DNA of 64,000 nucleotides from an uncultured Gemmatimonadales bacterium (lineage in GTDB: Bacteria > Gemmatimonadota > Gemmatimonadetes > Gemmatimonadales > Gemmatimonadaceae), in assembly GCA_963793305.1 (NCBI GenBank), contig CAWBZV010000002.1, positions 448,001-512,000 of the forward strand, read 5' to 3'. Positions 12,497-33,913 of this stretch are shown here, in pieces. The translations under genes were made by a program, and so were the position numbers. Under the pieces are notes generated by a model. That model saw only the letters and a program-made list of their open reading frames with translations. It ran no database searches and was not told the DNA's origin. Position 1 is the first letter of the stretch. Each line of letters opens with the position of its first letter.

Positions 12497-12502
12497 CCGA
12501 TT

Positions 12503-14428: not shown

Positions 14429-14493
14429 GTGGAGCGCTTTGTGCCGTCCTCTCTGTCGTGAGAATAGATTTCCGCACCCTCCCACTCGAGTAG

Positions 14494-15156: not shown

Positions 15157-15194
15157 CAGAGCGTGGACGGTACGACCGGTGACTTCCCAGGCCT

Positions 15195-16121: not shown

Positions 16122-16123
16122 GA

Positions 16124-16540: not shown

Positions 16541-16546
16541 CGAACC

Positions 16547-16586
16547 AAAAAGAAAACCTCGCCGACGTTGCAACGCCAAGCGAGGC
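16547..16586 (-). terminator. Cassette-end hairpin/terminator with central palindrome CGTTGCAACG
   Basis: CCTCG...CGAGG stem followed on the minus strand by TTTTCTTTTT; repeated at 22761-22800 and 33741-33785. Confidence 0.65.
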
Positions 16587-16596
16587 AGAAAGTCTA

Positions 16597-16641
16597 TGGG
16601 CCGAGGAGGAGTTGAACCTCCGACCTCTCGCTTATCAGGCG
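16597..16641 (-). repeat. att core: 3' 45 nt of tRNA-Ile(GAT), exact copy
   Basis: Identical to 33800-33844; begins in the anticodon stem. Confidence 0.95.
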
Positions 16642-16775
16642 CGTCTGACTTCCCAGGCAACTTCGGCATCGCGCCGCATTTCCCTTTGATAGCCCGGCAA
16701 TCCGCCGCAGTCCGGGCGACGCGATGTCGGATGTTGCCGAATCAATTTGACACCAGATTTGACACCAACGGGCTC
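16642..16775. repeat. Cassette end B (Ile family 1) with arm-like repeat ATTTGACACCA x2
   Basis: Ungapped match to 26820-26953, about 25 mismatches in 134 nt by hand count; repeats at 16745 and 16757. Confidence 0.9.
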
Positions 16776-16795
16776 GACCTTATGTTGCAACCGAA

Positions 16796-17104
16796 GTGTC
16801 GAACGCAACTCTCGGCGGGACCTTGAGTATCAGGCGCATCGCAATCGGTGCGACGGTAATCGGCTTCGTCATGCCGATCTTCTGGGTCTTTGCGTCCCTA
16901 GCATTGATGGGACCCAAGGCATGGTGGACCGACCTGTACTGGACGGTCGTTCACATTACTTGTCCATTCGGGTTGACCGACGGTAGCGGCTGGGGCAACG
17001 CGCTAGAGAAGTCATTCCTGAACGCACTGTTGTATGGAGCGGCGGTCGGCCTATTAGCGGGTTTTTGGAAACAACTCCATGCCGAATCTCGACGTGGTGA
17101 CTAA
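16796..17104 (+). CDS. Small hypothetical membrane protein
   Basis: Two hydrophobic segments; start uncertain. Confidence 0.55.
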   Translation: MSNATLGGTLSIRRIAIGATVIGFVMPIFWVFASLALMGPKAWWTDLYWTVVHITCPFGLTDGSGWGNALEKSFLNALLYGAAVGLLAGFWKQLHAESRRGD

Positions 17105-17301
17105 CCGTCGGCTAGCTATTCGGCGGCGCATAGGCTGACGCCAACGTCGGCCCGAATTCTCGCGAACCAACGAATTCGAACCGTCTGCCTGAACCCATGC
17201 GGGCAGGGGAAACGACATTCTCGTGAGTGGAACACTAGAATGCGCGTATAGTTCGCTGGGTTGCACTCTGTAGTCGGCGCGTACCCGCCCAGGGGGATGA
17301 A

Positions 17302-17913
17302 ATGTCCATGTGCTTGCCGATTGTTGGGTTCTGGAGTCTGGTGTTGCTTGTGAGTCTCATTGCGTCGGGCGCGAGTGGGCAACCTGCCAAGGCGCCGCAG
17401 GCTTATTCCGTCACGGAAGTGAACGCCATGTTCGGCGCGACCATGACCTTGAAGATCGATCGCGACGGTGACAAGGCGGTCGTGGACGAGACTGTACCCT
17501 CGCGCTCCGCCGGATCGCCGGGCATCCATACGCACAGCTACTACGATATCAAGAATCACCGGAGCTATTCGGTGGACCTGAACTTTGCCAAGACCAATTG
17601 CAGCACCGGAACCTTCGACGACAACTGGTTCGATCCTTTTGAGATGTCGGAGACACTGATGCGCAGCTTTGGAAATGCACAGCAGGTCGGTACCCAGGCC
17701 GTCAACGGCTTCGCCACTAAAGTGATGGAGTCGGGTGCCGCGGGGCCCGAACACAAGAAGGTTTGGTTGGATACGACCTCCGGCCTCATCATCAAGGCAG
17801 AGGTTGGCGCGAAGACGATCATCGAAGTCAAAGAGGTCAGCCTGGCCAAACCGCCGGACTCACTCTTCGCTGTCCCGGCAGCGTGCGCCGCCGCGCCATC
17901 CCCGCCTTCATAA
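17302..17913 (+). CDS. Secreted hypothetical protein
   Basis: Signal peptide; KVWLD..SGLIIK, PPDSLFAVP. Confidence 0.7.
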   Translation: MSMCLPIVGFWSLVLLVSLIASGASGQPAKAPQAYSVTEVNAMFGATMTLKIDRDGDKAVVDETVPSRSAGSPGIHTHSYYDIKNHRSYSVDLNFAKTNCSTGTFDDNWFDPFEMSETLMRSFGNAQQVGTQAVNGFATKVMESGAAGPEHKKVWLDTTSGLIIKAEVGAKTIIEVKEVSLAKPPDSLFAVPAACAAAPSPPS

Positions 17914-18087
17914 GAACCCTAGCAATTCGCGGCGGAAACGCACCTGTGCTGACGCTTCTCCTCGTGACAGCGTTGCTGGTAGTCCCGTGGGATACACCAA
18001 AAACGCTCCTCGCCGTCATAAGCGAGGATCGGAACCAGTTCCAGCCGACGATCGACTACCCGCGCGAATGATTATCCTCGCGCCGCG

Positions 18088-19179
18088 CTAGCGGGAGTCG
18101 AACACGTCAGCCCCGAGCGCGCGGAGCTCTGGCTCGGCCGCATAACCCAAATGCACCAGGCCCAGCATGTCTTCGACGGACCGCAGGAGCGCGTAGTGAT
18201 TGTAAGGCCGTAACGAGACCGTGCCGGGACGGATGAAGGGTGACAGCATCACGGCCCCCACGCGTCCGCCACCAGGCCCCACGCCGCCCGGTTGTCGCGG
18301 CTGACCCGGTAGCGGTCGCTCGCCGCAACAGGCCGTCGAGTCCTCGGCCAACGGTCCGTCGGCCTCATCGAACGTGACGATCAACAACCCATCAGCCTTG
18401 AACGCCGGTGACGACGTGATCGTCGGGACCCATCGCCGCAAGAATCGGTCGACCGCGGCGAGTCCACCCGGCGTGCCGTCGAGGCACGTCCGATCGTGGC
18501 CATCGTTACACACGTTGGGTGCAATGAACACGTAGTTCGGAGTCGCCTCGGCGCTCGCCAGATCGGCGGCCAATCGGTCGAGGCTCACGACTCGTTCCGC
18601 ACAGCGCGCGGGGGCGTCGATGATCGAATGGAAGTAGTAGAAGGGGTTGTGCCACGCGACGTACTGGTCGCGCACGGACGGCGGCGCTGTCTCGGTTGGA
18701 TCGGGCGCGCCGATCGCCGGGTGGGCGCAACCGCGGCCCTCACGCGCCGGATCGTTCCCCAGATCCTCGACGTAGGCGCGCCAACGCAGGCCCGCGGAGT
18801 CGATCTGGTCTCCGATGGTTCGCACCATCGCTGGATAGATGCAGCCGGCGCCGAGGGCTTGCCCGTGCGCGTCGAGCCGCGGGCTCGCGAGCTGGAACTC
18901 CGAGTACGTGACGCAATCGAGCTGCGTCTGCTCGTTCGGTGCTTGTCCACTCACCAGCGCGACGTAGTTGTCGAGGCTCATGTGCCCGATGCCGTAGTAG
19001 TTCCGGAGCAGCGCGCCACGCTTCGGCAACGTGCGCGCCAAATACGGCGCCGGCGTCCGGCGGCCGAACGTGACGCGGTACGCTTGATTCTCGAGGACGA
19101 CGAGGAAGATATGCCGGATCTTCGGCGGAGCCGGCGTCAACGATGCGAGCAGCAAGCCCGCTCGGAACACTGGGAGCAT
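18088..19179 (-). CDS. Phosphoesterase family (acid phosphatase/phospholipase C-like) protein
   Basis: IRHIFLVVLEN, SLDNY, HNPF, PNVCNDGHD, VTFDE, YNHYALLRSVED. Confidence 0.88.
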   Translation of the reverse strand: MLPVFRAGLLLASLTPAPPKIRHIFLVVLENQAYRVTFGRRTPAPYLARTLPKRGALLRNYYGIGHMSLDNYVALVSGQAPNEQTQLDCVTYSEFQLASPRLDAHGQALGAGCIYPAMVRTIGDQIDSAGLRWRAYVEDLGNDPAREGRGCAHPAIGAPDPTETAPPSVRDQYVAWHNPFYYFHSIIDAPARCAERVVSLDRLAADLASAEATPNYVFIAPNVCNDGHDRTCLDGTPGGLAAVDRFLRRWVPTITSSPAFKADGLLIVTFDEADGPLAEDSTACCGERPLPGQPRQPGGVGPGGGRVGAVMLSPFIRPGTVSLRPYNHYALLRSVEDMLGLVHLGYAAEPELRALGADVFDSR

Positions 19180-19481
19180 TGGGCATTTTACCGATGCGGG
19201 TCCATATTCGGTAGCGTGTACTCGACCTGCCAATGCGTGACGGCAACAACCATCGGACGTCGCAGTCGCGACCGGGGGACACGATCAGCCGCGCTGGGTT
19301 CATCCACTAAGTCTTCGGCTTGGTGTGCTGGTTCGTTCTCGTGTTCGCGACCTACCTCATCATTCGCCCGATCACGCCCGCATCTTCACGACGACTCGCC
19401 GGCCAAGCAATAGGCCGACGTACGTCGCGACCGTGCCGCGCCTCCGCTACGGGATGATCGCGACGGTCGGTAGCTGAGGAC

Positions 19482-19643
19482 GCGGGATTTGAACCCGCGA
19501 CCCCCTGAACCCCATTCGGTTCTCGGGTACGGTATCAACTACCTAGGATGGCGCCGTTCAGAGGGAAAACCGGGCGTCGGGCCCGATCTTCAACGCCGAA
19601 ATGTCGGTGGTTGCCGGCGGAAACGGGCCCCCAAACGGGCCCC
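19482..19643. repeat. 162-bp repeat: tRNA-Pro(GGG) 3' fragment plus end with AAACGGGCCCC x2
   Basis: Identical to 30099-30260; reverse complement begins GAATGGGGTTCAGGGGGTCGCGGGTTCAAATCCCGC. Confidence 0.95.
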
Positions 19644-19712
19644 GGCTGTTGCTGTCCGTTGGTTCGACGCGCACCGCCGGACTGGCCGAAACTCCTTAAT
19701 CGAAGCAATTAG

Positions 19713-20678
19713 CTAAGCGATACCTAGTCTGCGAGTTGCTCGCACGAGGTTATCGTAGGCATCGGCGACGGCTGTCGCCGATTCATTTAGCTCTCTTTGG
19801 GCTTTCTCAAACCGCGCGGGATTAGTCTCGCTCCACTCTGGCGGCACGCCAAGACTCCCCGCCCCGCCGAGCGCAAAGGTATGCTGTACGACGAAAGCGA
19901 CGAAGGTGCGGAGCTTCTGGCGCATTGTGACGCGCAGAGCTTCTAGCGCTGGGTCGAGAAATTCATAATCTGCGCCGATGGCGGTCTCGTTGTAGCTAAC
20001 TAGGTCGCCGAGAATGTCCCGGATAAAGGAATTTCCGTAGTCCTGAACTCGGAGTGCAAACTTACTGTTCTCGGTTGCAAAAACCGCCCTAATGTGCTGC
20101 ATCACCAGCCCATCACCTTTAAGATTGGCCTCGGCTACCTGTACCTCTGGGTATTGCGGAGGAACAGCGCCTGCTGCTTGCTTTTCTTGCCGCGGCAGAG
20201 GACCGACCTCGTCTATCGCCTCGGCAATCTTGCTGCACGCCGTCGACACCGCGGCGACCCAGTTGTCGTCCCTTCTGCTAGCGTCGTATTCGATCAGGGT
20301 CAAGCCGGCCACGTCCGTAGGCAGGTGAAGGTCAGCAGCGCCACGCGGTTTTACGATGAGTGCCCGCTTTCGGCCGAGGGCCCCAACGAACATGCCGAGC
20401 TCGATCAGTACATTGTCTCGCGTAATCCTGTGATCTTCGCCGCGGATCTTCGCCGAGTCATCAGGAGTGAAGAGAAATACGCCAAAGTCAGAGACTCCCA
20501 GCTGACTCTCAAGCGACTCGAGTGTGTACCACGAGGGCTTAAACACATCCTGGTCCCAGACGGTCACCTCCGCAATTCGCTCCAATCTAGAGTGAATTGC
20601 GTTGGCGATCTTCAGAGCCTCAGAGGCCGACGCAACGAATACCTTGGGCCGAGCCGTGGCTTTGGCCGATTGTTCCAC
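19713..20678 (-). CDS. TIR-like nucleotide-binding protein (Cap12/PycTIR-type TIR) with unknown C-terminal domain
   Basis: VFVASASEAL...W...DFGVFLFTPDD...RDNVLIELGMFVG.LG...LPTD. Confidence 0.85.
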   Translation of the reverse strand: MEQSAKATARPKVFVASASEALKIANAIHSRLERIAEVTVWDQDVFKPSWYTLESLESQLGVSDFGVFLFTPDDSAKIRGEDHRITRDNVLIELGMFVGALGRKRALIVKPRGAADLHLPTDVAGLTLIEYDASRRDDNWVAAVSTACSKIAEAIDEVGPLPRQEKQAAGAVPPQYPEVQVAEANLKGDGLVMQHIRAVFATENSKFALRVQDYGNSFIRDILGDLVSYNETAIGADYEFLDPALEALRVTMRQKLRTFVAFVVQHTFALGGAGSLGVPPEWSETNPARFEKAQRELNESATAVADAYDNLVRATRRLGIA

Positions 20679-20811
20679 TATTCAGGAAAAACGGGTGCGG
20701 GTGCGAAGGTCACGATGTGACCGTCAAGACGTAGCCTATGCCAGTTGCATCGTTGGTCACAACAGCATCGTTTTCGAGAGAGCCCTGGAGCGCCGTGCCA
20801 GCAGACCCGAA

Positions 20812-21045
20812 CTACGCACGTACTTTGTGCGCCTGCGCCTTCACTAATTGAGCTAGTACGCGCAGCGCTGCATTCACACTCTCCGGCGTGTGAAACACTT
20901 CAGCAACGTCATCGTCGAGCCGTACGACGTTGGTGCCGGCTGCGAACTGAGCGGCATGCTTTCCCCTCACCCCGCCCCGGAAGTCATAGTGGTCCCGCGT
21001 TTCGTCGCCTGGCGGCGTGGCCGCCTTTTTAGCGTCCTTCTTCAT
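20812..21045 (-). CDS. BrnA-like antitoxin
   Basis: YDFRGGVRGKH...VRLDDDVAEVF...VNAALR; overlaps the toxin 3' end. Confidence 0.8.
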   Translation of the reverse strand: MKKDAKKAATPPGDETRDHYDFRGGVRGKHAAQFAAGTNVVRLDDDVAEVFHTPESVNAALRVLAQLVKAQAHKVRA

Positions 21046-21322
21046 AGACTCTCCGTTCGTCCGGATCCGGCGTCCGTGCACTAATGATGCGAACTACGGT
21101 TGCCTGCTGCCCCTCTGTCTCCGTGTAAACTACCACGAGCAGACGCCCGGTGCTGGACCGCCCGATGTCGACCCAACGCGACTCGCCAATCGAGTGCCCT
21201 GAATCGGGAATGGTCAACGAGAGGGGGTCGCTCAGGACAGTCGCGGCTTCCACAAACGTGACGCGATGCTTGCGGACGTTCTCGGAGGCCTTCTCTGGGT
21301 TCCAAGCGAAGCGCAAGTCCAC
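21029..21322 (-). CDS. brnT: BrnT family toxin
   Basis: FAWNPEKASENVRKHRVTF.EA...RIISAR. Confidence 0.9.
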   Translation of the reverse strand: MDLRFAWNPEKASENVRKHRVTFVEAATVLSDPLSLTIPDSGHSIGESRWVDIGRSSTGRLLVVVYTETEGQQATVVRIISARTPDPDERRVYEEGR

Positions 21323-21435
21323 GCGCCAATATAGCCCGCCTCAAGGTCGAAGCGACGGGCGGTATTACACGTGCGAAGCCGGACGCCTGGTCATTAGGTG
21401 TTACTCGACTAGGACAGCCGGATTCCATGCCGCGA

Positions 21436-22530
21436 CTACGTGAGATCTTCGAAGGTCATAGGGCCACCGATCCGGTATTGCACGCCCCATTCGTCCGGGT
21501 ATGGCCGTCCCATAAACGACGCAGAGGTCGTCCAGGCTTCCCGCGCCGCCTGCGTCTGGACGTCAAAAAACCAGCCAGGGCGGCGGATCACGTGGCTGAG
21601 GTCCCACTCCCACGTCACATAGCGCCCCGCGGTGTACTCGGACACAGTTGGGAATACCTGGACGCTCAGGCGATTCCCTTCGTTGTCCAGCTGGTCGAGC
21701 ATCACTGCTCCGCTATCGAGGAGAGAAGTCATGGTATTGTCGCTATATACAGCCACCCGGCCCATCGCAACTCTCACGTAATTGCGCTTTATCTCGCGGA
21801 GTTTGAGCAGAGTGTCTAGCCCGAGATCCGACGCGGAGACGGCGACGCGGCGAACAACACTTGCCCCATGAACGAGTGCGTTGCGGTTCTCCAGCACGAC
21901 ACGGACTGCCCGCTGAAGATCGCTAGGGATGACGCTCTTCGATGCCAGGACAATCGATAGGTCGGTGGCACTGTAACTACTCCAGGCACGGCCGGGAGGC
22001 AGATACCCGCCATTCCCCGCGATTATTATCAGCTCGATGCGAATTTGCTCCGCCGCCCAGAGCAGCCGCTCTGCCTTATCAACAGGCGGTGTCAGATCGG
22101 AAACCTCGGAGAACTGCGCGGTCGAGCCGCTGGCACTCGCGTCTTGATTGGGCGAGCTAAAGGTGCCCGACCCTGCGAACACGCCCTGCGGCGGCGATGG
22201 CGTCAGTACCCGGACGTCCTCTGCTCTGACGCTACCGAGATCTTCTTTCGCCCTCTCGATCTCGCGCCTGCGGCTTGCACTAACGCCGAATGCCTCGATC
22301 TTGTCGATATCAAGCTTATCGAGGTCTACCAAGAGGAGTGCAGCCGCGACGCCGAGTAGTCCCAACGACGTCCCATCGATCGCGAGAGCCGGCCAGACGA
22401 CGTGTGCCACTGCGAGCAGCGTCGCGACAATAACGACTACCAGTTTGACCCACCGACGCTGACGACGGTTGATGAGGGCGCTATCGAATTCGGCATCCTG
22501 CGATGGAGGGTCTTTCGCTTCAGAAGCCAC
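21436..22530 (-). CDS. Two-TM protein with HEPN-like RNxxxH motif
   Basis: Two N-terminal TM helices; helical region containing RNALVH. Confidence 0.7.
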   Translation of the reverse strand: MASEAKDPPSQDAEFDSALINRRQRRWVKLVVVIVATLLAVAHVVWPALAIDGTSLGLLGVAAALLLVDLDKLDIDKIEAFGVSASRRREIERAKEDLGSVRAEDVRVLTPSPPQGVFAGSGTFSSPNQDASASGSTAQFSEVSDLTPPVDKAERLLWAAEQIRIELIIIAGNGGYLPPGRAWSSYSATDLSIVLASKSVIPSDLQRAVRVVLENRNALVHGASVVRRVAVSASDLGLDTLLKLREIKRNYVRVAMGRVAVYSDNTMTSLLDSGAVMLDQLDNEGNRLSVQVFPTVSEYTAGRYVTWEWDLSHVIRRPGWFFDVQTQAAREAWTTSASFMGRPYPDEWGVQYRIGGPMTFEDLT

Positions 22531-22550
22531 GATGGGATTGCTCAGTTACT

Positions 22551-22730
22551 ATGCGTGAAGACCTGCGTCTCCGTTACGCCACTGAGGTCCGCAAGGACCT
22601 TGCGCACCTGGGCGGCTGGAAGGATCCCGCAACGATCCTGAAGTGCTATCGGAAGCCAGACGAAGCGACGCAACGCGCCGCGTGGGGGCAGCGGCAAACG
22701 CCGCGCACTAGTGAGCTCGCACCGCGCTAG
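22551..22730 (+). pseudogene. C-terminal remnant of a tyrosine integrase
   Basis: LRLRYATE..KDLAHLGGWKDPATILKCY resembles box II with the catalytic Tyr; abuts the arm repeat and att core. Confidence 0.75.
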
Positions 22731-22812
22731 CAATTTGACACTAACGCCCCGAGCGGCGCAAGAAGAAACCTCGCCCGACGTTGCAACGCCAAACGAGGTT
22801 CGAGTTTTCGAG
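22731..22812. repeat. Cassette end A (arm AATTTGACAC plus hairpin with CGTTGCAACG)
   Basis: Homologous to 33701-33797 and 16547-16594. Confidence 0.85.
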
Positions 22813-22814
22813 TA

Positions 22815-22846
22815 TGGGCGAACCTCCGACCTCTCGCTTATCAGGC
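22815..22846 (-). repeat. Degenerate att core: tRNA-Ile 3' half with a 12-nt deletion
   Basis: tgggc[cgaggaggagtt deleted]gaacctccgacctctcgcttatcaggc. Confidence 0.9.
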
Positions 22847-22990
22847 TGGAGTCGAGCGCTGAGGACCGCCGAAGACCATTGGAGTTCGGATGCGGCCCGG
22901 ATCTCCACGTCCGTGTTCAACTGAGAGCCGTAGTGATCGCTGGCACTGCCTCTGACACTGTTCGGCAACGCAAAAGCGTTGCTGACTGGA

Positions 22991-23443
22991 TCAAGTCGGC
23001 GGAGGATCTCCCGGCCCGATTGCCGCTGGACCAGGCGCGGGATTGAGCCGTATCGAATCCGCGTCACTCGCTGATCCCACAATGCTACCAGTCGGAAACG
23101 GCAATGGCCTCCGGTATTGCACGGCGATCTCTGTCAGTCGGTCCAATACGGGACCATCCAACATCGCATTGTCAAGTTGGATGTTCACCAGGGCGAACTT
23201 GTCTGCGGATATACTAACAGACGGCAGCACCTGGGTGCGCTCGGGCCCGTGGTGCCAGTATCGGCGGCACGCTGTAATCAGCACGCCCGCAAAAAGCGTG
23301 GCGCCAGTGTAAACGAGCACTGGATAGTCGGGCCGGCCAAGCCACGCCATGACAAGGGATCCAGCCGCGAGGACTCCGAGCAGGACGTGATTCGAAAGAA
23401 CGCCACCCGTCAACCTTAGCTTCACCCAGTCAAGGCTACCCAA
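22991..23443 (-). CDS. Hypothetical two-TM protein
   Basis: Two hydrophobic helices; start overlaps the upstream gene stop. Confidence 0.65.
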   Translation of the reverse strand: MGSLDWVKLRLTGGVLSNHVLLGVLAAGSLVMAWLGRPDYPVLVYTGATLFAGVLITACRRYWHHGPERTQVLPSVSISADKFALVNIQLDNAMLDGPVLDRLTEIAVQYRRPLPFPTGSIVGSASDADSIRLNPAPGPAAIGPGDPPPT

Positions 23444-23894
23444 TTGTCACCAACCCGTCTGGAGAGAAGTTGGGGTTGAAGACTGCAAACTGACTCAGGC
23501 CGTAGAAAGTGTGGAAGGCCTTGAGCACGCGTAGGGCGGGGTCGCCAAAGAAGAGCGCGCAGCCGACTATGCGGCACGCGTTGAAGGCGAACAACCCAGT
23601 GTTAGTGTAGAGATGGCAGCCCTCGAAGCAACAGTTCGTAAATGAGTAACCATTTAGCTCGATCTTGACGTTCTTGTAATACTGGTTACGTACATTGCCA
23701 CCGCCTTGCGCTCGGAGTTTCGATCCCAGGGTACTTGGCCCAGTAGGGGACAACGAGGGCATAAGGTGCGCTAGTTTGGGATCTTCCGGCGGATAAGCCA
23801 TGAACTTCAGTCCTTGCAGAGATTTGTTGGGGATGGGCCCGCTCACCGCTCCGAGTGCGGATCGTACGCGAGGGCGGCCGCTAGTCTTCGTCAC
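23436..23894 (-). CDS. Hypothetical protein (start uncertain)
   Basis: ORF with a YSFTNCCFEGC stretch, between the ATPase and TM genes. Confidence 0.6.
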   Translation of the reverse strand: MTKTSGRPRVRSALGAVSGPIPNKSLQGLKFMAYPPEDPKLAHLMPSLSPTGPSTLGSKLRAQGGGNVRNQYYKNVKIELNGYSFTNCCFEGCHLYTNTGLFAFNACRIVGCALFFGDPALRVLKAFHTFYGLSQFAVFNPNFSPDGLVTIG

Positions 23895-26642: not shown

Positions 26643-26725
26643 CTGTCGCTCTTGTTATCGAATCAGCGCCACACTGGGGTCGGTTGCCACTGCTTTTGTC
26701 ACTGTCCGAGCGCCGCGCATCTATG

Positions 26726-26760
26726 AAAAATCCCCGAGCGGTCCGAAAACCGCACGGGGA
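26726..26760 (-). terminator. Rho-independent terminator downstream of a tRNA 3' copy
   Basis: TCCCCGTGCGGT-TTTCGG-ACCGCTCGGGGA-TTTTT on the minus strand. Confidence 0.75.
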
Positions 26761-26774
26761 CGTATTTTCGGGTA

Positions 26775-26819
26775 TGGGCCGAGGAGGAGTTGAACCTCCG
26801 ACCTCTCGCATATCAGGCG
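26775..26819 (-). repeat. att core: tRNA-Ile 3' 45 nt, one substitution (26810)
   Basis: 44/45 identical to 33800-33844. Confidence 0.95.
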
Positions 26820-26953
26820 CGTCTAACTGACCCGTCAACTCCGACATCGCATCGCATTTCCCTCTGACAGCACGGCAATCCGCCCGACTCTGAGCGACGC
26901 AACGTCGGAGCTTGCCGGTCGAATTTGACACCAGATTTGACACCAACGGGCTC
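26820..26953. repeat. Cassette end B (Ile family 1), second copy
   Basis: About 80% identical to 16642-16775; ATTTGACACCAGATTTGACACCAACGGGCTC fully conserved. Confidence 0.9.
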
Positions 26954-27355
26954 AACCACGAATATCTACCTCCGCTCGCAGTTTGGACGCTGCCCGCCAC
27001 CGACGACTTGCAGTGCAATTCTCTCAGTACATCCGTGGTGCGCCATTCACCTCGGGCGAAACTGCTCGCGCACCACTAAGTCGGTTGTCGCGTGACGGTA
27101 ACTAGCCAACGGAAGGCCTGCACCGCTAGCACGACGAGTGCAACCTACATCACTATGTTAGCGCCCTGCCGGCGAGTAATGCCACAATCGCCGCTGATAA
27201 CCGTCCTTGCATGCGTGATGTCAGCCGCTGTCCGTCTCTCCAACTGAGCGTGAGCACTAGATCGGCGATATCCGTTTCCCTGCCTGATCAGGATGCAACC
27301 TTCTTGCAATTGCGATCGCTGAATGACTCGGCGTCCTTGGCAGCGAAGCGTGCGT

Positions 27356-29747
27356 TCATTCTGACGACAGGGTTCGCACGGGATCCAGGCGACTCGCACG
27401 GTACGCCGGCGCGGTACAGGCGGCGACACTCACCAGCAGCAGCGTGACCGCGCTCGCCATCAGCGTAAGAGGATCGATGGTGGACACGCCGAGCGCGACG
27501 GTAGCCATTGCGCGCGACATCGCCACCGAGCCGATGACGCCGGTGACGATTCCTGTTCCGGCCCACCGTAGTCCCTCTCGAAGGACCGCGGCCAGGATTT
27601 CACCACGCTGAGCGCCGAGCGCCAACCGAATACCTATTTCGCGCGTCCGGAGGGAGACGAGATATGCGAGCAGGCCGTAGGTCCCAGTCGCTGCCAGCAA
27701 CAGCGCCGCCACGGCGAAGAAGAGGAAGACGAGCATGTCGAATCGCGGCGCGCGGAACTCCTGCTCCATCATCTCGGACATGGTTCGCACGCTCCCCGGC
27801 ACGAGATCCCGGTCGACCATTCGCACTCGGGCACGGATGGTGTGAGCGAGGCTGCCCGGTGGTAGACTGGTGCGCACGACGAAATACGAAAACGGGCGCG
27901 GCCGCTGGCGGTTGGACCAGTATAGCTGGGGCTCCGTCGCCTTCCCGGGCTCGACCGGCGCGACGTCCCGCACCACGCCGATCACAGTGAACGTGGCCTT
28001 TTCCTCGCGCAACGTGATCCGCTTGCCCACCGGATCCTCGCCCAGCCAGTAGCGCCGGGCAAGCGCCTCGTTGACGAGCGCGACGAGTGGCGCGCCGCCA
28101 ATGTCGCGACCGTCGAAATCACGGCCCCGCATAATCGGCACACCAAGGGTCGCGAAGAACCCCGGGCTCACGTCGAACCAACGAACCGATGTGCCGACGG
28201 GCGTCGTGCCATCGAGACTCACCTCGTCTGTCTCGAGTCCGCCAAAAAGAGGCCCCCCGGACGCGGAGCCAGCCGCCGCGACACCGCTCGTGCTGCGCAG
28301 CGCCCTCTCCACGCGATCCCAGAGGGCCGGCACTTGACCCTGAGAATACTTCTCGTCGGCGAACAGCGAGAACGTGAGGAGATGTTGCTGTTCGAACCCG
28401 GGGCTCCAGCTCGTCAGCGCACCAAACGACCGCGTGAGCAACCCGGCGCCGGAGACCAGCATCGAGGCGAGGGCGAGCTCGCCGATGACGAGGATCGGGC
28501 CGATGCGACGTCCGCCGCGGGAAGCCGTGCGGCCACCCTCGCGGAGCAACTGCGCGGCGCTCGTGCCCACCGAGCGGACGGCGGGGATGAGACCGAAAAT
28601 GAGCGTCGTCGCGACCGTCAGGATCACGGCGAAGCCGAGCGCCACACTGTCGACTCGTACGTCCTCGAGGCGGGGTAGCGAAGCAGGTGACATCGCCTTG
28701 AACGCGTGGGTCGCTCCAGTCGCCAACACCACGCCGATCCCCGCGCTGGCCAGCGCGAGGACGAGACTCTCCACGAGGAGCTGGCGCGCGACCCGTGCGC
28801 GACTGGCCCCGAGTGCCGATCGAAGCGCCATTTCGCGCTGGCGAGCGGTCGCCCGGGCGAGCAGCAGGTTGGCCACGTTCGCGCAAGCGATGAGGAGTAC
28901 GACGAACACTGCAGCCAGGAACAGGAGAAGGATCGTGCGGAACGTCGCCGACTACGAGGTCCTGCAGAGACTCCGCGGTCAATCCCCACCCAGCCGTTGT
29001 CGCGAAGTGCTCGCGACGGATGGACGCCGCGATCTGGGCCAGTTCCGAACGGAATGCGCTGAGCGACGCGCCGGGGGCGCGCCGCCCATACGCGACGAAC
29101 CCGCGCCAGTCGCGCTGCGATTCATCCCGCGGATCGATGTGAATCGGCCGCCACAGCTGTACGCTCTCGAATTTCGGAAGGTTGAACTCGCGCGGCAGCA
29201 CGCCCACGATGGTCACGGGCTTGCCGTCGAGTACAAGCGCGCGGCCCACAACGTCTCGCGAGCTACCGAATCGCGACTGCCACATCGCGTACGAGAGCAG
29301 CGCGACCGTGCTCTCGCGGCCGATGAGATCCGACGGTTCGATGAGGCGGCCGAGCGCCGGCCGTACGCCGAGGGCGCGGAACAGTCCCGGCGTGGCCAGG
29401 CCCCCCAGAATCGACTCCGCGCCGTCCGCTGTCGCCAGGTGGTAGGGCCAATCCCGGGCGATGCCGATCGCCTCGAGTGTCCGGGATCGGGCGGCGAGGT
29501 CCTCGACGTTCGGGGGAGAGATGCTGCACCAATCCGCGGTCGCGCCCGGATATTGCTCGCACACGGTGACCAACCGGTCGGCGTGCGGAAAAGCGAGCGG
29601 TCGTAGCACGATGCCGTAGACGATCCCGAAGATCGCGGTCGTGATGCCGATCCCCAACGCCAGCGTCAGCACGGCGGCGAGGCTGAACGCCCGGTGCGCA
29701 AGCAGCGTCCGGGTTGCGTAGCGGATATCCAACACGAAATCGCGCAT
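27356..29747 (-). CDS. Duplicated-domain ABC permease (MacB/FtsX-like), +1 frameshift at ~28941
   Basis: AAVLTLALGIG, LLIACANVANLLLARA, RTREIGIRLALGA; the join restores VGDVRTILLL. Confidence 0.88.
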
Positions 29748-30090
29748 GGTGCCGCCCAGTCAAGTGGACTGACTCACGAACGCTCGCAATCAGCGGGCCA
29801 TCACAACATTGGCGCAACGCATACCAAGTTGGTTCGGCTCGGCAGCTTACGCGTGTCAGGATTTCCCTTTCCGACTTTCGCGTGCGCGGCTTCGGGACCC
29901 CTTGTCCGACTCCGGACACGACGCCGTGCGTCCCAGCGAATAGTCGGTATTCCGGTGCTAAGCAGCGACGCGCTAGCTACGCGCGACCGGGTAACGAAAC
30001 GCCCTGACCATGATGAGCGAGGAGTGCAAGTTGCGAGAACGTGCGGTTAGCGCGAGAAACGGGTCCCGCTCGCAATTTTTTGCAAATCAA

Positions 30091-30134
30091 TCGGGACGGC
30101 GGGATTTGAACCCGCGACCCCCTGAACCCCATTC
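30091..30134 (-). repeat. att core: 3' 44 nt of tRNA-Pro(GGG)
   Basis: GAATGGGGTTCAGGGGGTCGCGGGTTCAAATCCCGCCGTCCCGA; no 5' half present in the window. Confidence 0.9.
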
Positions 30135-30260
30135 GGTTCTCGGGTACGGTATCAACTACCTAGGATGGCGCCGTTCAGAGGGAAAACCGGGCGTCGGGCC
30201 CGATCTTCAACGCCGAAATGTCGGTGGTTGCCGGCGGAAACGGGCCCCCAAACGGGCCCC
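30099..30260. repeat. 162-bp repeat, second copy
   Basis: Identical to 19482-19643. Confidence 0.95.
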
Positions 30261-30304
30261 CGCCCGTTAACTCACAGCCGTGCGCGTCGACGGCGTGCCT
30301 GCAA

Positions 30305-30625
30305 TCAATCTGAATCCGCTCGGGCAAAGCGGATCACTTTACCGTCAAATGCGACTGCCAGTATGCCTTTGTCCATGGAATATCGGTTTCGCTGCCGGCG
30401 AGGCATGCTAGGCTGGTCGGTCTCGATCCATTCACCACTCGCGCGATAGGTTAGCAGCATGATTTGATCCTTGCTGTGCTCATGCACCGTGTATATCAGC
30501 GTGCCGTCGGCGCGAAAGTCCATCGTGACATCACCAAAAGATCGCCCTCCGCATTCGTCGTTTGGGTCCGATCGCCAAACGCCGATTAGTCCATCCTGAG
30601 GCTTCCGTCGAAATCCAAAAATCAC
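30305..30625 (-). CDS. Small hypothetical protein
   Basis: LIGVW...MDFRADG beta-rich pattern; RBS GAGGG. Confidence 0.65.
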   Translation of the reverse strand: MIFGFRRKPQDGLIGVWRSDPNDECGGRSFGDVTMDFRADGTLIYTVHEHSKDQIMLLTYRASGEWIETDQPSMPRRQRNRYSMDKGILAVAFDGKVIRFARADSD

Positions 30626-30776
30626 GCGCTTACCCTCATGTCACTACGGCGGCTGAATGGGCCCTGGTGCCGACGAGGCGAGGACAAAACAAGCTGCTGC
30701 GTGACCCGCTGCATGGCATTTCCGGGTTAATCAAGGCGAACCTCGCGGCTTCTCACCGTGACCCAACGTCCTTCGG

Positions 30777-31715
30777 TCAAATCAACTCTCGCCCAGAGTA
30801 GATAGGTGCACCTAGCCACTGCGTTAGGGCGCTGGCCAGCCTACGGCGAATGCCATGCGCTTGGTTGATGAGACGGCCACCAAAAGCATCGCGGAAAATT
30901 GGGGTGCAGAACATCACCGAAAATCGCGGAATCCGCTTCTCGTTGAAGTTTCTCCAGTGCGGGAATCGACAATACACGACCATCTCAATAATCCGCTGAT
31001 ATTTTGCGCCTTGGCCGTCGCGGACCCGTTGGGCGAGCTGCTCAGTCACGTGCTTGAAATGGTCACTCAGATACATCGCACCGGCGATATCAGCGTCCAG
31101 CAACGCAACAATCAGGTCACGTACGTTTAGGCACTGGGAGATGTCAACTGCGATGATCCCGGGTCGTCCGTAGTCCCAGAGTTGGTCTGCTGCAGTGGAG
31201 ATCAGCCCGCTCGCTCCCGCAGTAGTTTGCGGGCGCTTTACTTCGACTCCACAGTGTAGGCCGTCGACGTTAATTGCGAAATCAGGATGACCTCGATTGA
31301 CCTTTTTTGGAGGCACGGTTGTGTTCATCTCAGCGCGCGCTAGAACGCTTCCGAACCAAAGTTGCGCTTGATAGTCGTAAGGTGTCTGACCGTCTTGCTC
31401 TTCGAGGCTGCCTTTGAGAGAACGCACGAGGTCCTCGGCGATTCGTTCGACCCGCTCGTCACCCAAGCAATAAGACACCTGGACAAAATCGCCAGCGACC
31501 ATGATCGCGTTGCTGATCAGCATTAGGCGGCGGGGGTCCGTTCCGAACGTACCCTCCTCAGCAACGCGTGTAAGTAACCTGCTCGCCATTCGCAAGCGGC
31601 CTAGTGGGCGGACTGGCAGCTCCCACTGTCGCAGCTTCGCGATAGCAGCATCGAGGCTATCCGCGAGGCCCCTACAGGCTTCTGGCGGGAAGTCATCATC
31701 GCTGAACGGCGGCAT
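30777..31715 (-). CDS. Hypothetical protein with PD-(D/E)XK nuclease motif
   Basis: HPDFAINVDGLHCGVEVKR; start placed at ATG 31715. Confidence 0.7.
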   Translation of the reverse strand: MPPFSDDDFPPEACRGLADSLDAAIAKLRQWELPVRPLGRLRMASRLLTRVAEEGTFGTDPRRLMLISNAIMVAGDFVQVSYCLGDERVERIAEDLVRSLKGSLEEQDGQTPYDYQAQLWFGSVLARAEMNTTVPPKKVNRGHPDFAINVDGLHCGVEVKRPQTTAGASGLISTAADQLWDYGRPGIIAVDISQCLNVRDLIVALLDADIAGAMYLSDHFKHVTEQLAQRVRDGQGAKYQRIIEMVVYCRFPHWRNFNEKRIPRFSVMFCTPIFRDAFGGRLINQAHGIRRRLASALTQWLGAPIYSGRELI

Positions 31716-31726
31716 CCGAGTATCAG

Positions 31727-32548
31727 TCACGGAACCTGTCGAAACTCTGGTCGCCGATGGTTGACCAGCGGTCGGTGCGTGGCGGCGCAATCGTTGTAGA
31801 TCGACTGGCTTACAATCGCGCGCAGTCCAACTTGCCCGTGGAGCTTGATCACACGATCAAGAATCGTCCCTGGTGCAGTCGACCCTGACCTGACATACAC
31901 GTGCCGAAGCAAAACCGTCAAGTCAACGGGAACTCGAACTCCGCCCTCGACAGGTGTAAATAGGTAAGGCAGCGTCAGTGCTGCGTCGGAACGATATCTG
32001 TCGATCATGATTGCCCGGGCTTCCTTTTCCACCTCATACCGGCGGTCTTTCGTGAGCGCCAACCTATAGAGATTGTCCTGCGCGACCGCCTCGGTGCGGA
32101 AATCGCAATACTGCACGCGGGCCAGTAGAACCTGGCTGGACTGTGTTGTGATCGAGCGGACCAGTGCGCCCGCCGTGGTAAGAATCGCTACTCCTTCGAC
32201 TCCACTGGCGCCCGGACAGTACCAGGTCCAGGCCTCATCGGATTCTGTGGTGTCTAAGCGCCAGCAGTTCGCATATGTCGTCGACCGGAAAACCTTCGAG
32301 AGGCGGTCGCCCCAGGAGCCAGGTCTCGGACGCAAGTCCTCCTCGCGAACTCCTACACTGCGGAAGTAGGCATTTCGGTCGTCGACATTTCGTTGGGGAA
32401 AGGTGCCCTCGAGTTGATCTTCGAAATTGTCGATCCTTGAGAAGAAGAGATACCGGCCTAGGACCATCTGCTCATATCTTGAGTAAGGCAGATATCTCCA
32501 AATAGTTTCATCGTCGCGCGCCTGCTCGTAGAACAAAGATTGAGACAT
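31727..32548 (-). CDS. DUF2971-like protein
   Basis: IWRY...FSRIDNFEDQLEG...ANCW...ES..W.WY...GVAI...K...Y..EKEAR. Confidence 0.75.
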   Translation of the reverse strand: MSQSLFYEQARDDETIWRYLPYSRYEQMVLGRYLFFSRIDNFEDQLEGTFPQRNVDDRNAYFRSVGVREEDLRPRPGSWGDRLSKVFRSTTYANCWRLDTTESDEAWTWYCPGASGVEGVAILTTAGALVRSITTQSSQVLLARVQYCDFRTEAVAQDNLYRLALTKDRRYEVEKEARAIMIDRYRSDAALTLPYLFTPVEGGVRVPVDLTVLLRHVYVRSGSTAPGTILDRVIKLHGQVGLRAIVSQSIYNDCAATHRPLVNHRRPEFRQVP

Positions 32549-32699
32549 GCCAATCGCTCGATTTTCGGTGCGTAGAGAACGGAGTCCTCAAGAGGCTGTG
32601 ACGCCCACGCGGGTATGTGCGCTGCCACGCATTCGCAATAAATTACCCTGAGGTGGGTGGATCAGATCGGTCAACAAACCGGTGATATCGGAAGGGGTT

Positions 32700-32888
32700 A
32701 TGACAGTGAAAGAACGAGTGCTGGATGTTGTTCGCGACCTGCCAGATGATGCCACGATAGAGGACGCGATTTACAGATTGCATCTGCTTGCTAAGATCGA
32801 CCAGGGTCTGGCCCAAGGTGCCGCTGGAGATACGCTGAGCCAAGAAGAAGTCCGCCGCCGCCTGGCGCCCTACCTGGCGCCTCGCTGA
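32700..32888 (+). CDS. Antitoxin of a RelE/ParE-type TA pair
   Basis: KERVL..VRDLPDDATIED..Y.L..L.KIDQGL; RBS GAAGGGG. Confidence 0.8.
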   Translation: MTVKERVLDVVRDLPDDATIEDAIYRLHLLAKIDQGLAQGAAGDTLSQEEVRRRLAPYLAPR

Positions 32889-33223
32889 CTAACCCTGAAA
32901 GTCCGACCCCTGTCGGCGTTCGTTGGGCACTTCAGGCGGTCGATGACCTCGCGGCGATCTGCCAGTACATTGGGCGAGATTCGCCGTCAGCTGCTGCTGC
33001 GTTCGCAGAGCGCGTACTCCACGCTGTCAGTGGAGCTGCTCTCTTTCCGCTAGCCGGTCGTACGGTCCCTGAAGTAAGACGGTCGGACGTTCGTGAAGTG
33101 TTCGTACACAGCTACCGGGTGATTTATCAGGTTTCGGAGAATGCAGTCCTTATACTGACGGTATATCACGGCGCTCGTGCGTCCCTCCGCGAAACACTGG
33201 ACCCGCGACTCCCGTCACGTTGA
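32885..33223 (+). CDS. RelE/ParE family toxin (absent from the ORF track; possible CTG start)
   Basis: Manual translation VRWALQAVDDLAAICQYIGRDSP...FPLAGRTVPE...YRVIY...ILTVYHGAR. Confidence 0.85.
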   Translation: MTNPESPTPVGVRWALQAVDDLAAICQYIGRDSPSAAAAFAERVLHAVSGAALFPLAGRTVPEVRRSDVREVFVHSYRVIYQVSENAVLILTVYHGARASLRETLDPRLPSR

Positions 33224-33321
33224 GACAGGTCAATGTGACCGGACTTGTGCTCGCTCGCCGCCGTTCGCACCCGGCTTCGAAATGAACAGTTAACCCAGGA
33301 GCGGGCGTCAGGGCGCCGGCT

Positions 33322-33588
33322 TCAGGATGGTCGCTCATACGCCGTTGAAAGAGCGCCCTGTGCGTCCAATAGTCGTTCCAGCTGCAGGGCCACGTTCACA
33401 TAGTCCGTAGTGTCAGCCTCGGAAAGCGCGAAGTCCGGCAAATGCACGGCCTTGTTTCGCAGGTCGCGTAGCTCCACGAGGAGTCGGCACTGATCGGAGG
33501 TCAAGATCTCCGCATCACGGAGTGCCTTTTCGATATTGCGCGGTGTCCGCATTATGACGGAGCCCATAACAAGGCCTCTCCGAGTCAT
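33322..33588 (-). pseudogene. HEPN/DUF4145-like fragment, probably 5'-truncated
   Basis: ELRDLRNKAVH motif; short; abuts the integrase tail. Confidence 0.6.
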
Positions 33589-33625
33589 TGCCCTGGCTGC
33601 TGTTCGTTCAACACCCAGCCAAGCG

Positions 33626-33700
33626 CCCGACGAGGCCACGCAGCGCGCCGCGTTGGAGCAGCGCCAATCACTGCACGCCAGCGGTCTCACACGGCGCTAG
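33626..33700 (+). pseudogene. Last 24 codons of a tyrosine integrase
   Basis: PDEATQRAALEQRQSLHASGLTRR* aligns with PDEATQRAAWGQRQTPRTSELAPR* (22656-22730). Confidence 0.75.
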
Positions 33701-33797
33701 TGAATTTGACACCAGATGTGACCCTGACGCCCCGAGCAGCAGAAAAAGAAAACCTCGCGCAGCGTTGCAACGCTAAGCGAAGTTGAGAGATCGAGAG
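33701..33797. repeat. Cassette end A adjoining the tRNA 3' end (arm plus terminator hairpin)
   Basis: AATTTGACACCAGATGTGACCC, AAACCTCG...CGTTGCAACG...CGAAGTT. Confidence 0.85.
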
Positions 33798-33799
33798 TA

Positions 33800-33873
33800 T
33801 GGGCCGAGGAGGAGTTGAACCTCCGACCTCTCGCTTATCAGGCGAGCGCTCTAACCACCTGAGCTACCGGCCC
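33800..33873 (-). tRNA. tRNA-Ile(GAT), CCA not encoded
   Basis: GGGCCGGTAGCTCAGGTGGTTAGAGCGCTCGCCTGATAAGCGAGAGGTCGGAGGTTCAACTCCTCCTCGGCCCA folds as a full cloverleaf. Confidence 0.97.
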
Positions 33874-33913
33874 CAGTGACGCGCGGAGCAAAGTAAGGTA
33901 GCGGGAGCACCCG

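What the first reader, a model, noticed from the sequence alone, without database searches (positions are those of the whole stretch)
16547..33873. Integron-like tandem array of integrase-less att-bounded cassettes at tRNA-Ile carrying defence cargo
Seen: three extra copies of the tRNA-Ile 3' half (16597, 22815, 26775) in the same orientation as the intact gene, each starting in the anticodon stem. Each has a terminator-bearing end on one side and an arm-repeat end on the other. Cargo is unrelated between units and no intact integrase is present in the window. Established: tyrosine integrases often cross over in tRNA anticodon loops and use arm-type repeats, and junctions in tandem arrays resemble attP. 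Inference: non-autonomous 4-7 kb cassettes mobilised in trans, forming a shufflable defence repertoire that uses tRNA att sites instead of attC.
Basis: partly seen in the sequence, partly recalled or inferred. Interest (0 to 1): 0.9.

Follow-up and report, generated by a model that had tools for sequence, protein, structure and literature searches.

The report
Decayed mobile-element array at tRNA-Ile
Three integrase-less leftovers of mobilizable genomic islands sit head to tail behind a tRNA-Ile gene in a soil Gemmatimonadaceae genome, which is a clear but ordinary case of island pile-up and decay rather than a new integron-like system.

Summary
Behind tRNA-Ile(GAT) (33800-33873, minus strand) lie three same-strand copies of its 3' part, each starting in the anticodon stem. 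They are at 26773-26819 (46/47), 22815-22847 (damaged) and 16595-16641 (47/47), and they bound units of 7.0, 4.0 and 6.2 kb. No integrase domain is in the window.

The "integron-like" reading is not supported. Units A and C each keep a 3' stub of a tyrosine integrase gene (24 and 59 codons) next to their tRNA-proximal end. In the genus mate G005 and in a metagenome contig with ~94% identical flanks, the same tRNA carries the full module. That module is integrase, HTH_17 excisionase-like gene, MobA/VirD2 relaxase and NikA/MobC, so it is an integrative mobilizable element (IME). G001, also a genus mate (flanks ~94% identical), lacks the whole 17.2 kb.

The units are therefore decayed IME remnants piled up by tandem accretion. 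This matches the published cis-mobilizable element (CIME) model.

This genome has no cognate integrase, and no excision evidence was obtained. Cargo is mixed: a TIR protein, a PDC-S35 candidate, a BrnT toxin, but also a frameshifted permease and a phosphoesterase.

Mobilisation by an incoming sibling IME remains possible but is untested.

The parts
33800..33873 (-). Intact tRNA-Ile(GAT). Its 3' 47 nt (33798-33844) are the att core of the array.
   Evidence: ARAGORN; Rfam tRNA 70.6 bits
33626..33797 (.). Proximal arm (P') of unit A: terminator hairpin 33743-33786, arm site 33704-33713 with a degenerate second copy beside it, and a 24-codon 3' stub of the integrase gene on the + strand (33626-33697).
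   Evidence: Nucleotide similarity to the intact elements of G005 and L025 stops at 33625.
26820..33625 (-). Unit A interior. Small conserved ORF 32682-32885 (+); 273-aa ORF 31730-32548 (weak PDC-S31 match); 337-aa unknown 30780-31790; tRNA-Pro-type att relic 29976-30263; frameshifted ADOP permease 27359-29747.
26773..26957 (-). Junction 1: distal arm (P) of A with a double arm site at 26923-26944, plus a tRNA fragment at 26773-26819 (46/47; the mismatch is in the anticodon loop).
22848..26772 (.). Unit B. A different hairpin follows the core (26715-26772) and there are no GGTGTCAAAT arms. Contains a PDC-S35 / TIR-like gene 25875-26639 (+), a weak P-loop ORF 24813-25415 (-), and unknown ORFs 23945-24838, 23439-23894, 22994-23443 (-).
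22551..22847 (.). Junction 2: damaged tRNA fragment 22815-22847, terminator hairpin 22759-22800, arm site 22733-22742, and a 59-codon integrase stub at 22551-22727 (+) that still includes the catalytic-Tyr motif region.
16642..22550 (-). Unit C interior. 364-aa ORF 21439-22530 (lead: DUF4145-like); BrnT toxin 21032-21322 with a small downstream ORF 20815-21081; TIR protein 19716-20678; tRNA-Pro-type att relic 19478-19646; phosphoesterase 18091-19233; unknown ORFs 17119-17910.
16546..16779 (-). Junction 3: distal arm (P) of C with a double arm site at 16745-16766, a tRNA fragment 16595-16641 (47/47), then a terminator hairpin 16546-16585 with no arm site after it. This is probably the displaced native tRNA terminator.
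13253..16545 (.). Variable stretch that G001 does not share; probably an older relic. ORF 16127-16513 (-); CPBP/Rce1-like protease 15195-16118 (+); arm site 14401-14410 with a ~34-nt trace of an integrase 3' end at 14378-14411.
   Evidence: The CPBP gene is island cargo next to a P arm in L027.

Best explanation
This is a tandem accretion of decayed integrative mobilizable elements (IMEs) at tRNA-Ile(GAT).

The intact form of the family carries a tyrosine integrase convergent with the tRNA, an HTH_17 excisionase-like gene, a MobA/VirD2 relaxase and a NikA/MobC accessory gene. It integrates by recombination in the anticodon-loop region, and its own copy of the tRNA 3' part plus a terminator restores the gene. 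The displaced fragment marks the far end of the element. Each later arrival lands next to the tRNA and pushes older elements outward.

In this genome, units A and C of the GGTGTCAAAT-arm family, and unit B of another type, have lost the whole integrase-excisionase-relaxase module. A and C keep 24- and 59-codon integrase stubs. Both att ends survive, along with some cargo: a BrnT toxin, a TIR protein and a PDC-S35 candidate.

The units match the published definition of cis-mobilizable elements (CIMEs). They are inert here because no cognate integrase is present. They could move only if a sibling IME arrived, integrated beside them and supplied integrase and excisionase.

Shown: the anatomy, the stubs, the intact relatives and the empty site. 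Inferred: the order of arrival, the crossover position, and any residual mobility.
For: Anatomy and chance:
- The core repeats and arm sites are far above chance. The core 25-mer occurs 4 times against 0 expected; the arm 10-mer with up to 1 mismatch occurs 8 times against 1.75 expected.
- 6 of the 9 exact GGTGTCAAAT sites in the 5.72-Mb assembly lie in window 14401-33713.

Integrase stubs:
- tblastn of the full G005 integrase finds only aa 340-398 (22563-22727) and a C-terminal piece at 33575-33697 in the window. No N-terminal pieces are present.
- No relaxase, MobC or excisionase remnant is present.

Intact relatives:
- G005 (same genus) has a 10.4-kb element at tRNA-Ile with a 398-aa integrase (PF00589), HTH_17, relaxase and NikA/MobC.
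- That element is collinear with unit C: P' arm, BrnT region (86-88% aa identity), tRNA-Pro relic, P arm.
- L025, a metagenome contig whose flank is ~94% identical to the window, has tRNA-Ile followed by an intact integrase, excisionase-like gene and relaxase.
- G038, G007, G008 and G033 each have one island of about 12-19 kb with an intact integrase at tRNA-Ile and a distal fragment starting at the same position.

Empty site:
- G001 (same genus) is syntenic on both sides (window 1-13252 at 88-94% identity, 33743-40000 at 94%) on one 319-kb contig and lacks 16642-33742.

Decay:
- The ADOP permease is frameshifted and the phosphoesterase matches only the C-terminal part of its profile.
- One core is truncated.
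- GC is 0.53-0.68 inside the array against 0.65-0.70 outside.

Within-genome parallel:
- The tRNA-Pro locus of this same genome has an intact sibling IME next to the tRNA and integrase-less units with a stub further out.

Literature:
- The three-step model (integration, decay to a CIME, accretion) is described in PMC5704250, section 2.3 (passages read).
Against: - Every integrase remnant found is a short C-terminal stub: A, C, the trace at 14378, L034, and the two tRNA-Pro-type stubs. Single random deletions would not often give this. I explain it as stepwise erosion down to the terminator and arm, which were held in place while each unit was tRNA-proximal, but that is inference.
- The P'/stub segment of A is only 72-80% identical to that of L025 while the flanks are ~94% identical. 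A is therefore not simply L025's element decayed in place, and I cannot tell whether A lost its integrase before or after arriving.
- Two of the three displaced cores are 47/47 and 46/47, which would also fit recent arrival or continued use.
- L034 and L022 show related units with other neighbours, which fits shuffling as well as independent accretion.
- The assembly is a draft (26 contigs, 92% complete, 5% contamination). No single independent contig spans a whole junction of this exact array.
Confidence: 0.75

Rival explanations
1. The units are working non-autonomous cassettes that are regularly cut out and re-inserted in trans by an integrase encoded elsewhere (a co-resident or visiting IME). 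The tRNA-Ile locus then acts as a shufflable store of defence genes, like an integron but with tRNA-type att sites.
For: - Core plus arm sites are kept at both ends of A and C.
- The outermost pair of cores, at the tRNA and at 16595-16641, are identical over 47 nt.
- A cognate integrase family is present in the genus.
- Related ends flank other cargo, and neighbours differ in L034 and L022.
- An integrase-less unit bounded by two P arms occurs on the 13.8-kb contig of L027/L028.
- Defence-type genes are present.
Against: - No cognate integrase is in this assembly. The best relative is 37% identical and sits at tRNA-Pro, whose att uses different arm repeats.
- The stubs show descent from autonomous IMEs, and the stub junctions are all different.
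- Core 22815-22847 is damaged, and the distal core of A differs from the tRNA in the anticodon loop.
- The cargo includes a pseudogene and non-defence genes.
- No similarity to the relaxase-proximal region of the intact IME is left, so transfer would need linkage to a whole IME.
- Even if true, this is the CIME concept already in print.
Confidence: 0.13
2. A single acquisition of a ready-made composite. The A-B-C block arrived in one step, either excised between the outermost att sites of a donor array and integrated here, or brought in by homologous replacement of the locus. Decay would then have happened mostly in earlier hosts.
For: - G001 lacks the entire block, and the block's outer cores are perfect.
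- The P' arm of A is not at flank-level identity with the close relative L025.
- Transfer of CIME-ICE tandems as a whole is reported in the passages read from PMC5704250.
Against: No donor array with the same order was found in the 5 genus genomes searched or in the 16 metagenome loci. L034 and L022 show other orders. This reading differs from the best explanation only in timing.
Confidence: 0.08
3. Assembly artefact. Alternative islands from co-occurring strains were chained through the shared 47-185-nt att repeats.
For: The genome is a draft with 5% contamination. The runs that hold the region are metagenomes with uneven depth along it.
Against: - Each junction has its own distinct flanks.
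- Metagenome contigs with zero mismatches cover 26461-26799, 26770-26878 and 33480-33826.
- Independent contigs L022 and L034 carry the same kinds of junction (P arm, core, then the next unit's proximal arm).
- The same architecture is seen at this genome's tRNA-Pro locus.
Confidence: 0.04

Closest known systems
Cis-mobilizable elements (CIMEs) and tandem accretion, as described for ICESt1/ICESt3-related islands of Streptococcus thermophilus. The definition and three-step model were read in passages of PMC5704250. The CIME definition also appears in passages of PMC10201445.
   Same: [quoted passage not shown]
   Different: The host is a Gemmatimonadaceae genome and the target is tRNA-Ile. Three such units lie in a row with no functional partner in the array, and no mobilisation has been tested.
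Tandem island arrays in tRNA genes as catalogued by Islander (PMC4383910; passages and Table 1 read)
   Same: An intact tDNA with displaced 3' fragments in the same orientation, and a fragment boundary of the anticodon-centred class.
   Different: Islander accepts a tandem member only if it has its own integrase gene, so this array would be filtered out or merged. In that table, arrays of three or more numbered 4.
Integrative mobilizable elements with a tyrosine integrase and a MobA/VirD2-type relaxase (the IME family seen intact in G005, in L025 and at this genome's tRNA-Pro)
   Same: The same att architecture (double arm sites with a 12-nt period, core, terminator), the same integrase C-terminus in the stubs, and a shared BrnT module with unit C.
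   Different: The window units have no integrase, excisionase, relaxase or MobC, so they are not IMEs by definition.
Integrons
   Same: Only the picture of several units in a row at one site, each bounded by recombination sites.
   Different: There is no IntI/attI/Pc platform and no attC. The units are multi-gene and 4-7 kb, a terminator-like hairpin follows each junction core, and they descend from self-integrating elements.
Composite SCC arrays with recombinase-less pseudo-SCC units at rlmH in staphylococci (recalled from general knowledge; no paper opened here)
   Same: Recombinase-less units bounded by direct repeats, stacked at one chromosomal site, which a recombinase supplied by a neighbour can move.
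   Different: The recombinase is of the serine type, and the target, host and cargo all differ.

Membership tests
Integron | An IntI-type integrase gene with attI and a cassette promoter at the head of the array | tested here: not met
   No PF00589 match anywhere in the window. Only 24- and 59-codon stubs of an IME-type integrase are present.
Integron | Short, mostly promoterless cassettes bounded by attC sites | tested here: not met
   The boundaries are tRNA-Ile 3' fragments with arm-type repeats. Units are 4.0-7.0 kb, and a terminator-like hairpin follows each core.
tDNA-integrated genomic island (Islander criteria) | An intact tDNA plus a displaced 3' fragment downstream in the same orientation | tested here: met
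tDNA-integrated genomic island (Islander criteria) | An integrase ORF inside each island | tested here: not met
   The criterion itself was read in PMC4383910.
CIME (cis-mobilizable element) | Flanked by attL and attR | tested here: met
   A and C have a core plus arm sites at both ends. B has cores only, and its distal one is truncated.
CIME (cis-mobilizable element) | Lacks recombination and conjugation/mobilisation genes | tested here: met
   The window has no PF00589 match. The genome has no resolvase-type recombinase. The only relaxases lie outside the window. No tblastn match to the G005 excisionase-like gene, relaxase or MobC.
CIME (cis-mobilizable element) | Derived from an ICE or IME by deletion | tested here: met
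   Integrase 3' stubs in A and C. C is collinear with the intact G005 IME. For B there is no evidence either way.
CIME (cis-mobilizable element) | Can be excised or transferred together with a functional element integrated beside it | not testable with these tools
   Only metagenome contigs were available, and they gave no usable joint.
IME (integrative mobilizable element) | Own integrase/excision module plus a relaxase or oriT | tested here: not met
   The feature is met in G005, in L025 and at this genome's tRNA-Pro locus.
CBASS / Pycsar (considered for the TIR gene 19716-20678) | A cyclase (CD-NTase or PycC) encoded next to the effector | tested here: not met
   Only the TIR domain matches (aa 6-160; PADLOC 7e-50; NCBIfam Cap12 far below its cut-off). 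No cyclase hit among the neighbours.

The most novel reading that the evidence does not exclude
In Gemmatimonadaceae, integrase-less att-bounded modules carrying defence and toxin-antitoxin genes form a circulating pool. Intact sibling IMEs re-sort them among arrays. Because tRNA-Ile-type units carry tRNA-Pro-type att relics and the reverse is also true (seen in G000, G003 and G005), cointegrate elements with two att modules may shuttle cargo between two tRNA hot spots.
Probability: 0.15. Interest if true: 0.55.

Novelty: new member of a known kind. Interest (0 to 1): 0.3.

Why it matters
The locus is a clean, well-bounded example of how defence and addiction genes stay behind at a tRNA hot spot after the mobile elements that brought them have lost their own machinery. 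It comes from a phylum (Gemmatimonadota) whose mobile elements are little described. A search of the held library for Gemmatimonad + genomic island + integrase + tRNA gave 12 papers; the 8 listed did not look, from title and abstract start, to be about such elements.

CIME-type units are rarely catalogued. One survey found none with an automated finder, and ICEberg listed 31 (passages of PMC10201445). Arrays like this one, which integrase-based finders skip, probably hide a share of island-borne cargo.

It does not open a new class of recombination system.

Tried and rejected
- **Read evidence for excision.** The only runs holding the region are metagenomes kept as contigs. When laid on 15500-34500, they gave joints only among the repeated att and tRNA-Pro-relic segments, all marked 'between: not known'. 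There was no clean circle or empty-site form. No conclusion either way.
- **Order-wide search for the double arm site** (up to 2 mismatches): 0 of 400 other genomes sampled. The sample did not include the genus mates that do have it. This says only that the arm type is narrow.
- **Rfam.** The only extra hit is a sub-threshold tmRNA match at 30088-30195 (25.3 bits against a gathering score of 47). It turned out to be the 3' part of tRNA-Pro(GGG).
- **Is A simply L025's element decayed in place?** Rejected. The P'/stub segment is only 72-80% identical while the flanks are ~94% identical.
- **Do A and C share one ancestral deletion junction?** Rejected. The ORFs beside the two stubs are unrelated, and similarity between A and C starts inside the stub.
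- **Is the hairpin after core 26773 the native flank?** It resembles the distal flank in G003 and a tRNA-Arg flank in G001 at ~75% identity. That is too weak to decide.
- **A structured RNA in the P arm?** There is an imperfect ~17-bp inverted repeat, but the covariation term is +1.06 and z-scores are -1.5 to -3.2. Not supported as an RNA.
- **Earlier notes of this scan:** none for this genome.

Full report
**1. What is in the sequence**

The window holds one tRNA gene, tRNA-Ile(GAT), at 33800-33873 on the minus strand. Downstream of it, at lower coordinates, are three more copies of its 3' part on the same strand:
- 26773-26819 (46 of 47 identical),
- 22815-22847 (one mismatch and a 14-nt internal loss in the T arm),
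- 16595-16641 (47 of 47).

A 25-nt piece of this core with up to two mismatches occurs four times in the window against 0.00 expected from shuffles. All copies start at (C)GCCTGATAAG, within the 5' strand of the anticodon stem. Start-to-start spacings are 7025, 3972 and 6206 nt. I call the units A, B and C, counting from the tRNA. GC is 0.53-0.68 across 16-34 kb against 0.65-0.70 in the flanks.

**2. The ends**

Directly after each of the four cores there is a hairpin followed by a T-run (-18.8 to -25.8 kcal/mol, z -2.4 to -3.4). Three are of one type. The one after core 26773 is different.

The 10-mer GGTGTCAAAT occurs nine times in the 5.72-Mb assembly, and six of these lie in the array. With one mismatch allowed, the window has eight sites against 1.75 expected.
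- A tandem double site with a 12-nt period lies ~100 nt upstream of cores 26773 and 16595. These are the distal (P) arms of A and C.
- A single or degenerate double site lies just beyond the terminator after the tRNA and after core 22815. These are the proximal (P') arms of A and C.

So arm repeats are on both sides of A and C, not on one side only. The two distal arms are 85% identical over 185 nt. B has neither arm type.

**3. Integrase stubs**

No PF00589 domain lies in the window: the genome has seven matches, none in C2:448001-512000. The genome has no resolvase-type recombinase.

On the plus strand, convergent with the tRNA or fragment and ending at the arm site, are the last codons of a tyrosine integrase gene.
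- C keeps 59 codons (22551-22727), including the ...HLGGWKDPATILKCY... region.
- A keeps about 24 codons (33626-33697).
- A ~34-nt trace with an arm site lies further left, at 14378-14411.

tblastn of a full-length relative finds only these C-terminal pieces in the window, with no N-terminal fragments. It finds no remnant of the neighbouring excisionase-like, relaxase or MobC genes either.

**4. The intact form exists in the lineage**

I searched 61 genomes (this genome and 60 relatives) with the 59-residue stub; 21 had a match. Nine loci were inspected. Five have the integrase next to tRNA-Ile(GAT), one next to tRNA-Lys, one next to tRNA-Ser, and two have no tRNA in the stretch.

In G005, labelled same genus, a 398-aa integrase ending ...GGWKDPATILKCYQKPDEATQRAALAQRQTLRAGGLVRR is convergent with tRNA-Ile. 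It belongs to a 10.4-kb element bounded by the tRNA and a displaced fragment with the same arm repeats. That element carries an HTH_17 excisionase-like gene, a MobA/VirD2 relaxase with a TraI-like middle domain, and a NikA/MobC gene. It is an integrative mobilizable element (IME).

Unit C is collinear with this IME: proximal arm, a BrnT-toxin region (86-88% amino-acid identity), a ~150-nt tRNA-Pro-type relic, then the distal arm. G038, G007, G008 and G033 each have one island of about 12-19 kb at tRNA-Ile. Each has an intact integrase (47-54% identical to G005's) and a distal fragment starting at the same position.

A record title returned for the G005 contig places it in Gemmatimonadaceae.

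**5. Empty and alternative sites**

G001 (same genus) is syntenic with the window on one 319-kb contig. Window 1-13252 matches in blocks at 88-94%, and 33743-40000 matches at 94%. G001 has nothing corresponding to 16642-33742.

After the last core in this genome, and after the tRNA in G001, the terminator is not followed by an arm site. All element-borne proximal arms do have one. So 16546-16585 is probably the displaced native terminator.

G003 (same genus) has a 15-kb stretch between tRNA-Ile and a distal half-core. It has no integrase and is full of insertion sequences.

**6. Metagenome scan for the double arm site**

The scan returned 16 loci.
- L025 has a flank ~94% identical to the window, then tRNA-Ile followed by an intact integrase (87% to G005's), the excisionase-like gene and the start of the relaxase. 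However, its terminator, arm and integrase-end segments are only 72%, 80% and 79% identical to those of unit A. A is therefore a different allele of the family, not L025's copy decayed in place.
- L034 shows a C-like segment (96.9% over 160 nt) next to a distal arm, a core, a proximal arm and its own integrase stub. This is followed by a homologue (89.7% amino-acid identity) of the small ORF at 32682-32885 of unit A.
- L022 shows distal arm, core, then the B-type hairpin (88% identity), followed by BrnT-like sequence.
- L027 and L028 are one 13.8-kb contig with two distal arms and half-cores 10.6 kb apart, and no integrase or relaxase.
- L030 is G005's own contig (100% identity).
- Ten loci have the arm motif without a tRNA-Ile core. 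One of these (L026) is beside tRNA-Arg(ACG).

So the ends do occur elsewhere with other cargo and other neighbours, and integrase-less units are common. The stub junctions differ between A, C and L034, and the genes beside the stubs of A and C are unrelated.

**7. No helper here**

The best relatives of the G005 integrase in this genome are 37% identical (C5:628631-629425) and 30% identical. The first belongs to an intact sibling IME at tRNA-Pro(GGG), with the order MobC/NikA, relaxase, HTH_17, integrase. Its att arms use a different double repeat, GGGGGCCCGTTT x2.

That locus also has integrase-less units further from the tRNA, with a C-terminal stub. This is the same pattern of an intact proximal element and decayed distal ones.

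**8. Cargo**

Defence-type or addiction genes:
- A protein with an N-terminal TIR domain at 19716-20678 (Pfam 7.6e-29; PADLOC 7e-50). No cyclase lies nearby, so it is not a CBASS or Pycsar system.
- A full-length PDC-S35 candidate at 25875-26639 (6e-19).
- A weak PDC-S31 match at 31730-32548 (3e-10).
- BrnT at 21032-21322 (6.8e-23).
- A lead to DUF4145-type proteins for 21439-22530 (Atlas score 0.92; the family is on only 20-26% of cluster members).

Other cargo:
- An ADOP permease split by a frameshift (27359-29747).
- A phosphoesterase that matches only profile positions 113-355.
- Several unknown ORFs.

'Defence cargo' is therefore only partly right.

**9. Interpretation**

The anatomy, the stubs, the intact siblings at the same tRNA, the empty site in G001 and the decayed cargo all fit the published three-step model. 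[quoted passage not shown]

Integrase-based finders would miss such units. Islander requires an integrase in each tandem member (PMC4383910, passages). One survey found no CIMEs with an automated tool (PMC10201445, passages).

I put 0.75 on decayed IME remnants that are inert in this genome.

In its favour:
- The att ends are well kept.
- The outermost cores are identical.
- The neighbours differ between genomes.
- All remnants are short C-terminal stubs.

I attribute the last point to stepwise erosion down to the terminator and arm, but did not test it. Even if the cassette reading were true, it would be the CIME idea rather than a new kind of system.

**10. Limits**
- The genome is a draft (26 contigs, 92% complete, 5% contamination).
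- Read-level evidence was not obtainable.
- Only one genome per species was available, so cassette order within the species could not be compared.

Noticed in passing
window 19478-19646 and 29976-30263; L001:2866-2976 (G000 C5:619866-619976): Units A and C each carry a tRNA-Pro-type att relic: the 3' 41 nt of tRNA-Pro(GGG) plus a P arm with a double GGGGGCCCGTTT repeat. The two relics are 99% identical to each other. In A the relic is preceded by a tRNA-Pro-type integrase stub. In the other direction, the tRNA-Pro array of this genome and that of G003 hold a tRNA-Ile half-core with its P arm. The intact G005 IME also has the relic. This suggests old cointegrates of two IME families.
   Followed up: partly
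relatives searched: Of the 47 listed matches to the integrase C-terminus in this genome and 60 relatives, 19 lie in open frames shorter than 220 aa. Some may be cut by contig ends. C-terminal integrase stubs seem common in this order.
   Followed up: no
window 27359-29747 (-): An ADOP-family duplicated permease is split into two overlapping frames: profile positions 3-267 and 279-803 of TIGR03434. This is a frameshift or a sequencing error.
   Followed up: no
window 16642-16744 and 26820-26922; alignment A3: The distal att arm contains an imperfect ~17-bp inverted repeat (CCGACATCGCGTCGC ... GCGAYGCGATGYCGG) that is conserved in 7 related arms. Covariation does not support an RNA. It may be a protein-binding or transfer-related site.
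   Followed up: partly
window 16759-16786 (+): On the opposite strand the arm repeat contains TTGACA. A promoter-like site (10 of 12 matches) points from the distal arm of C into the unit.
   Followed up: no
L026: The same double arm site lies about 165 nt downstream of a tRNA-Arg(ACG) gene on a metagenome contig. The arm type may therefore be shared by elements with another core specificity.
   Followed up: no
window 32682-32885 (+): A small 68-aa ORF with no family hit is conserved in L034 (89.7% aa identity), L028 (69.8%) and L027 (52%), each time close to an att arm.
   Followed up: partly
window about 1200-2030: This stretch matches dozens of places in each of the five genus genomes at 65-73% identity, so it belongs to a large paralogous family.
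   Followed up: no
L013:12784-14409 (G003): The integrase-less stretch at tRNA-Ile in G003 carries an HTH / Peptidase_M78 (IrrE-like) / DUF4411 gene trio next to IS21, Mutator-type and rve transposase genes.
   Followed up: no
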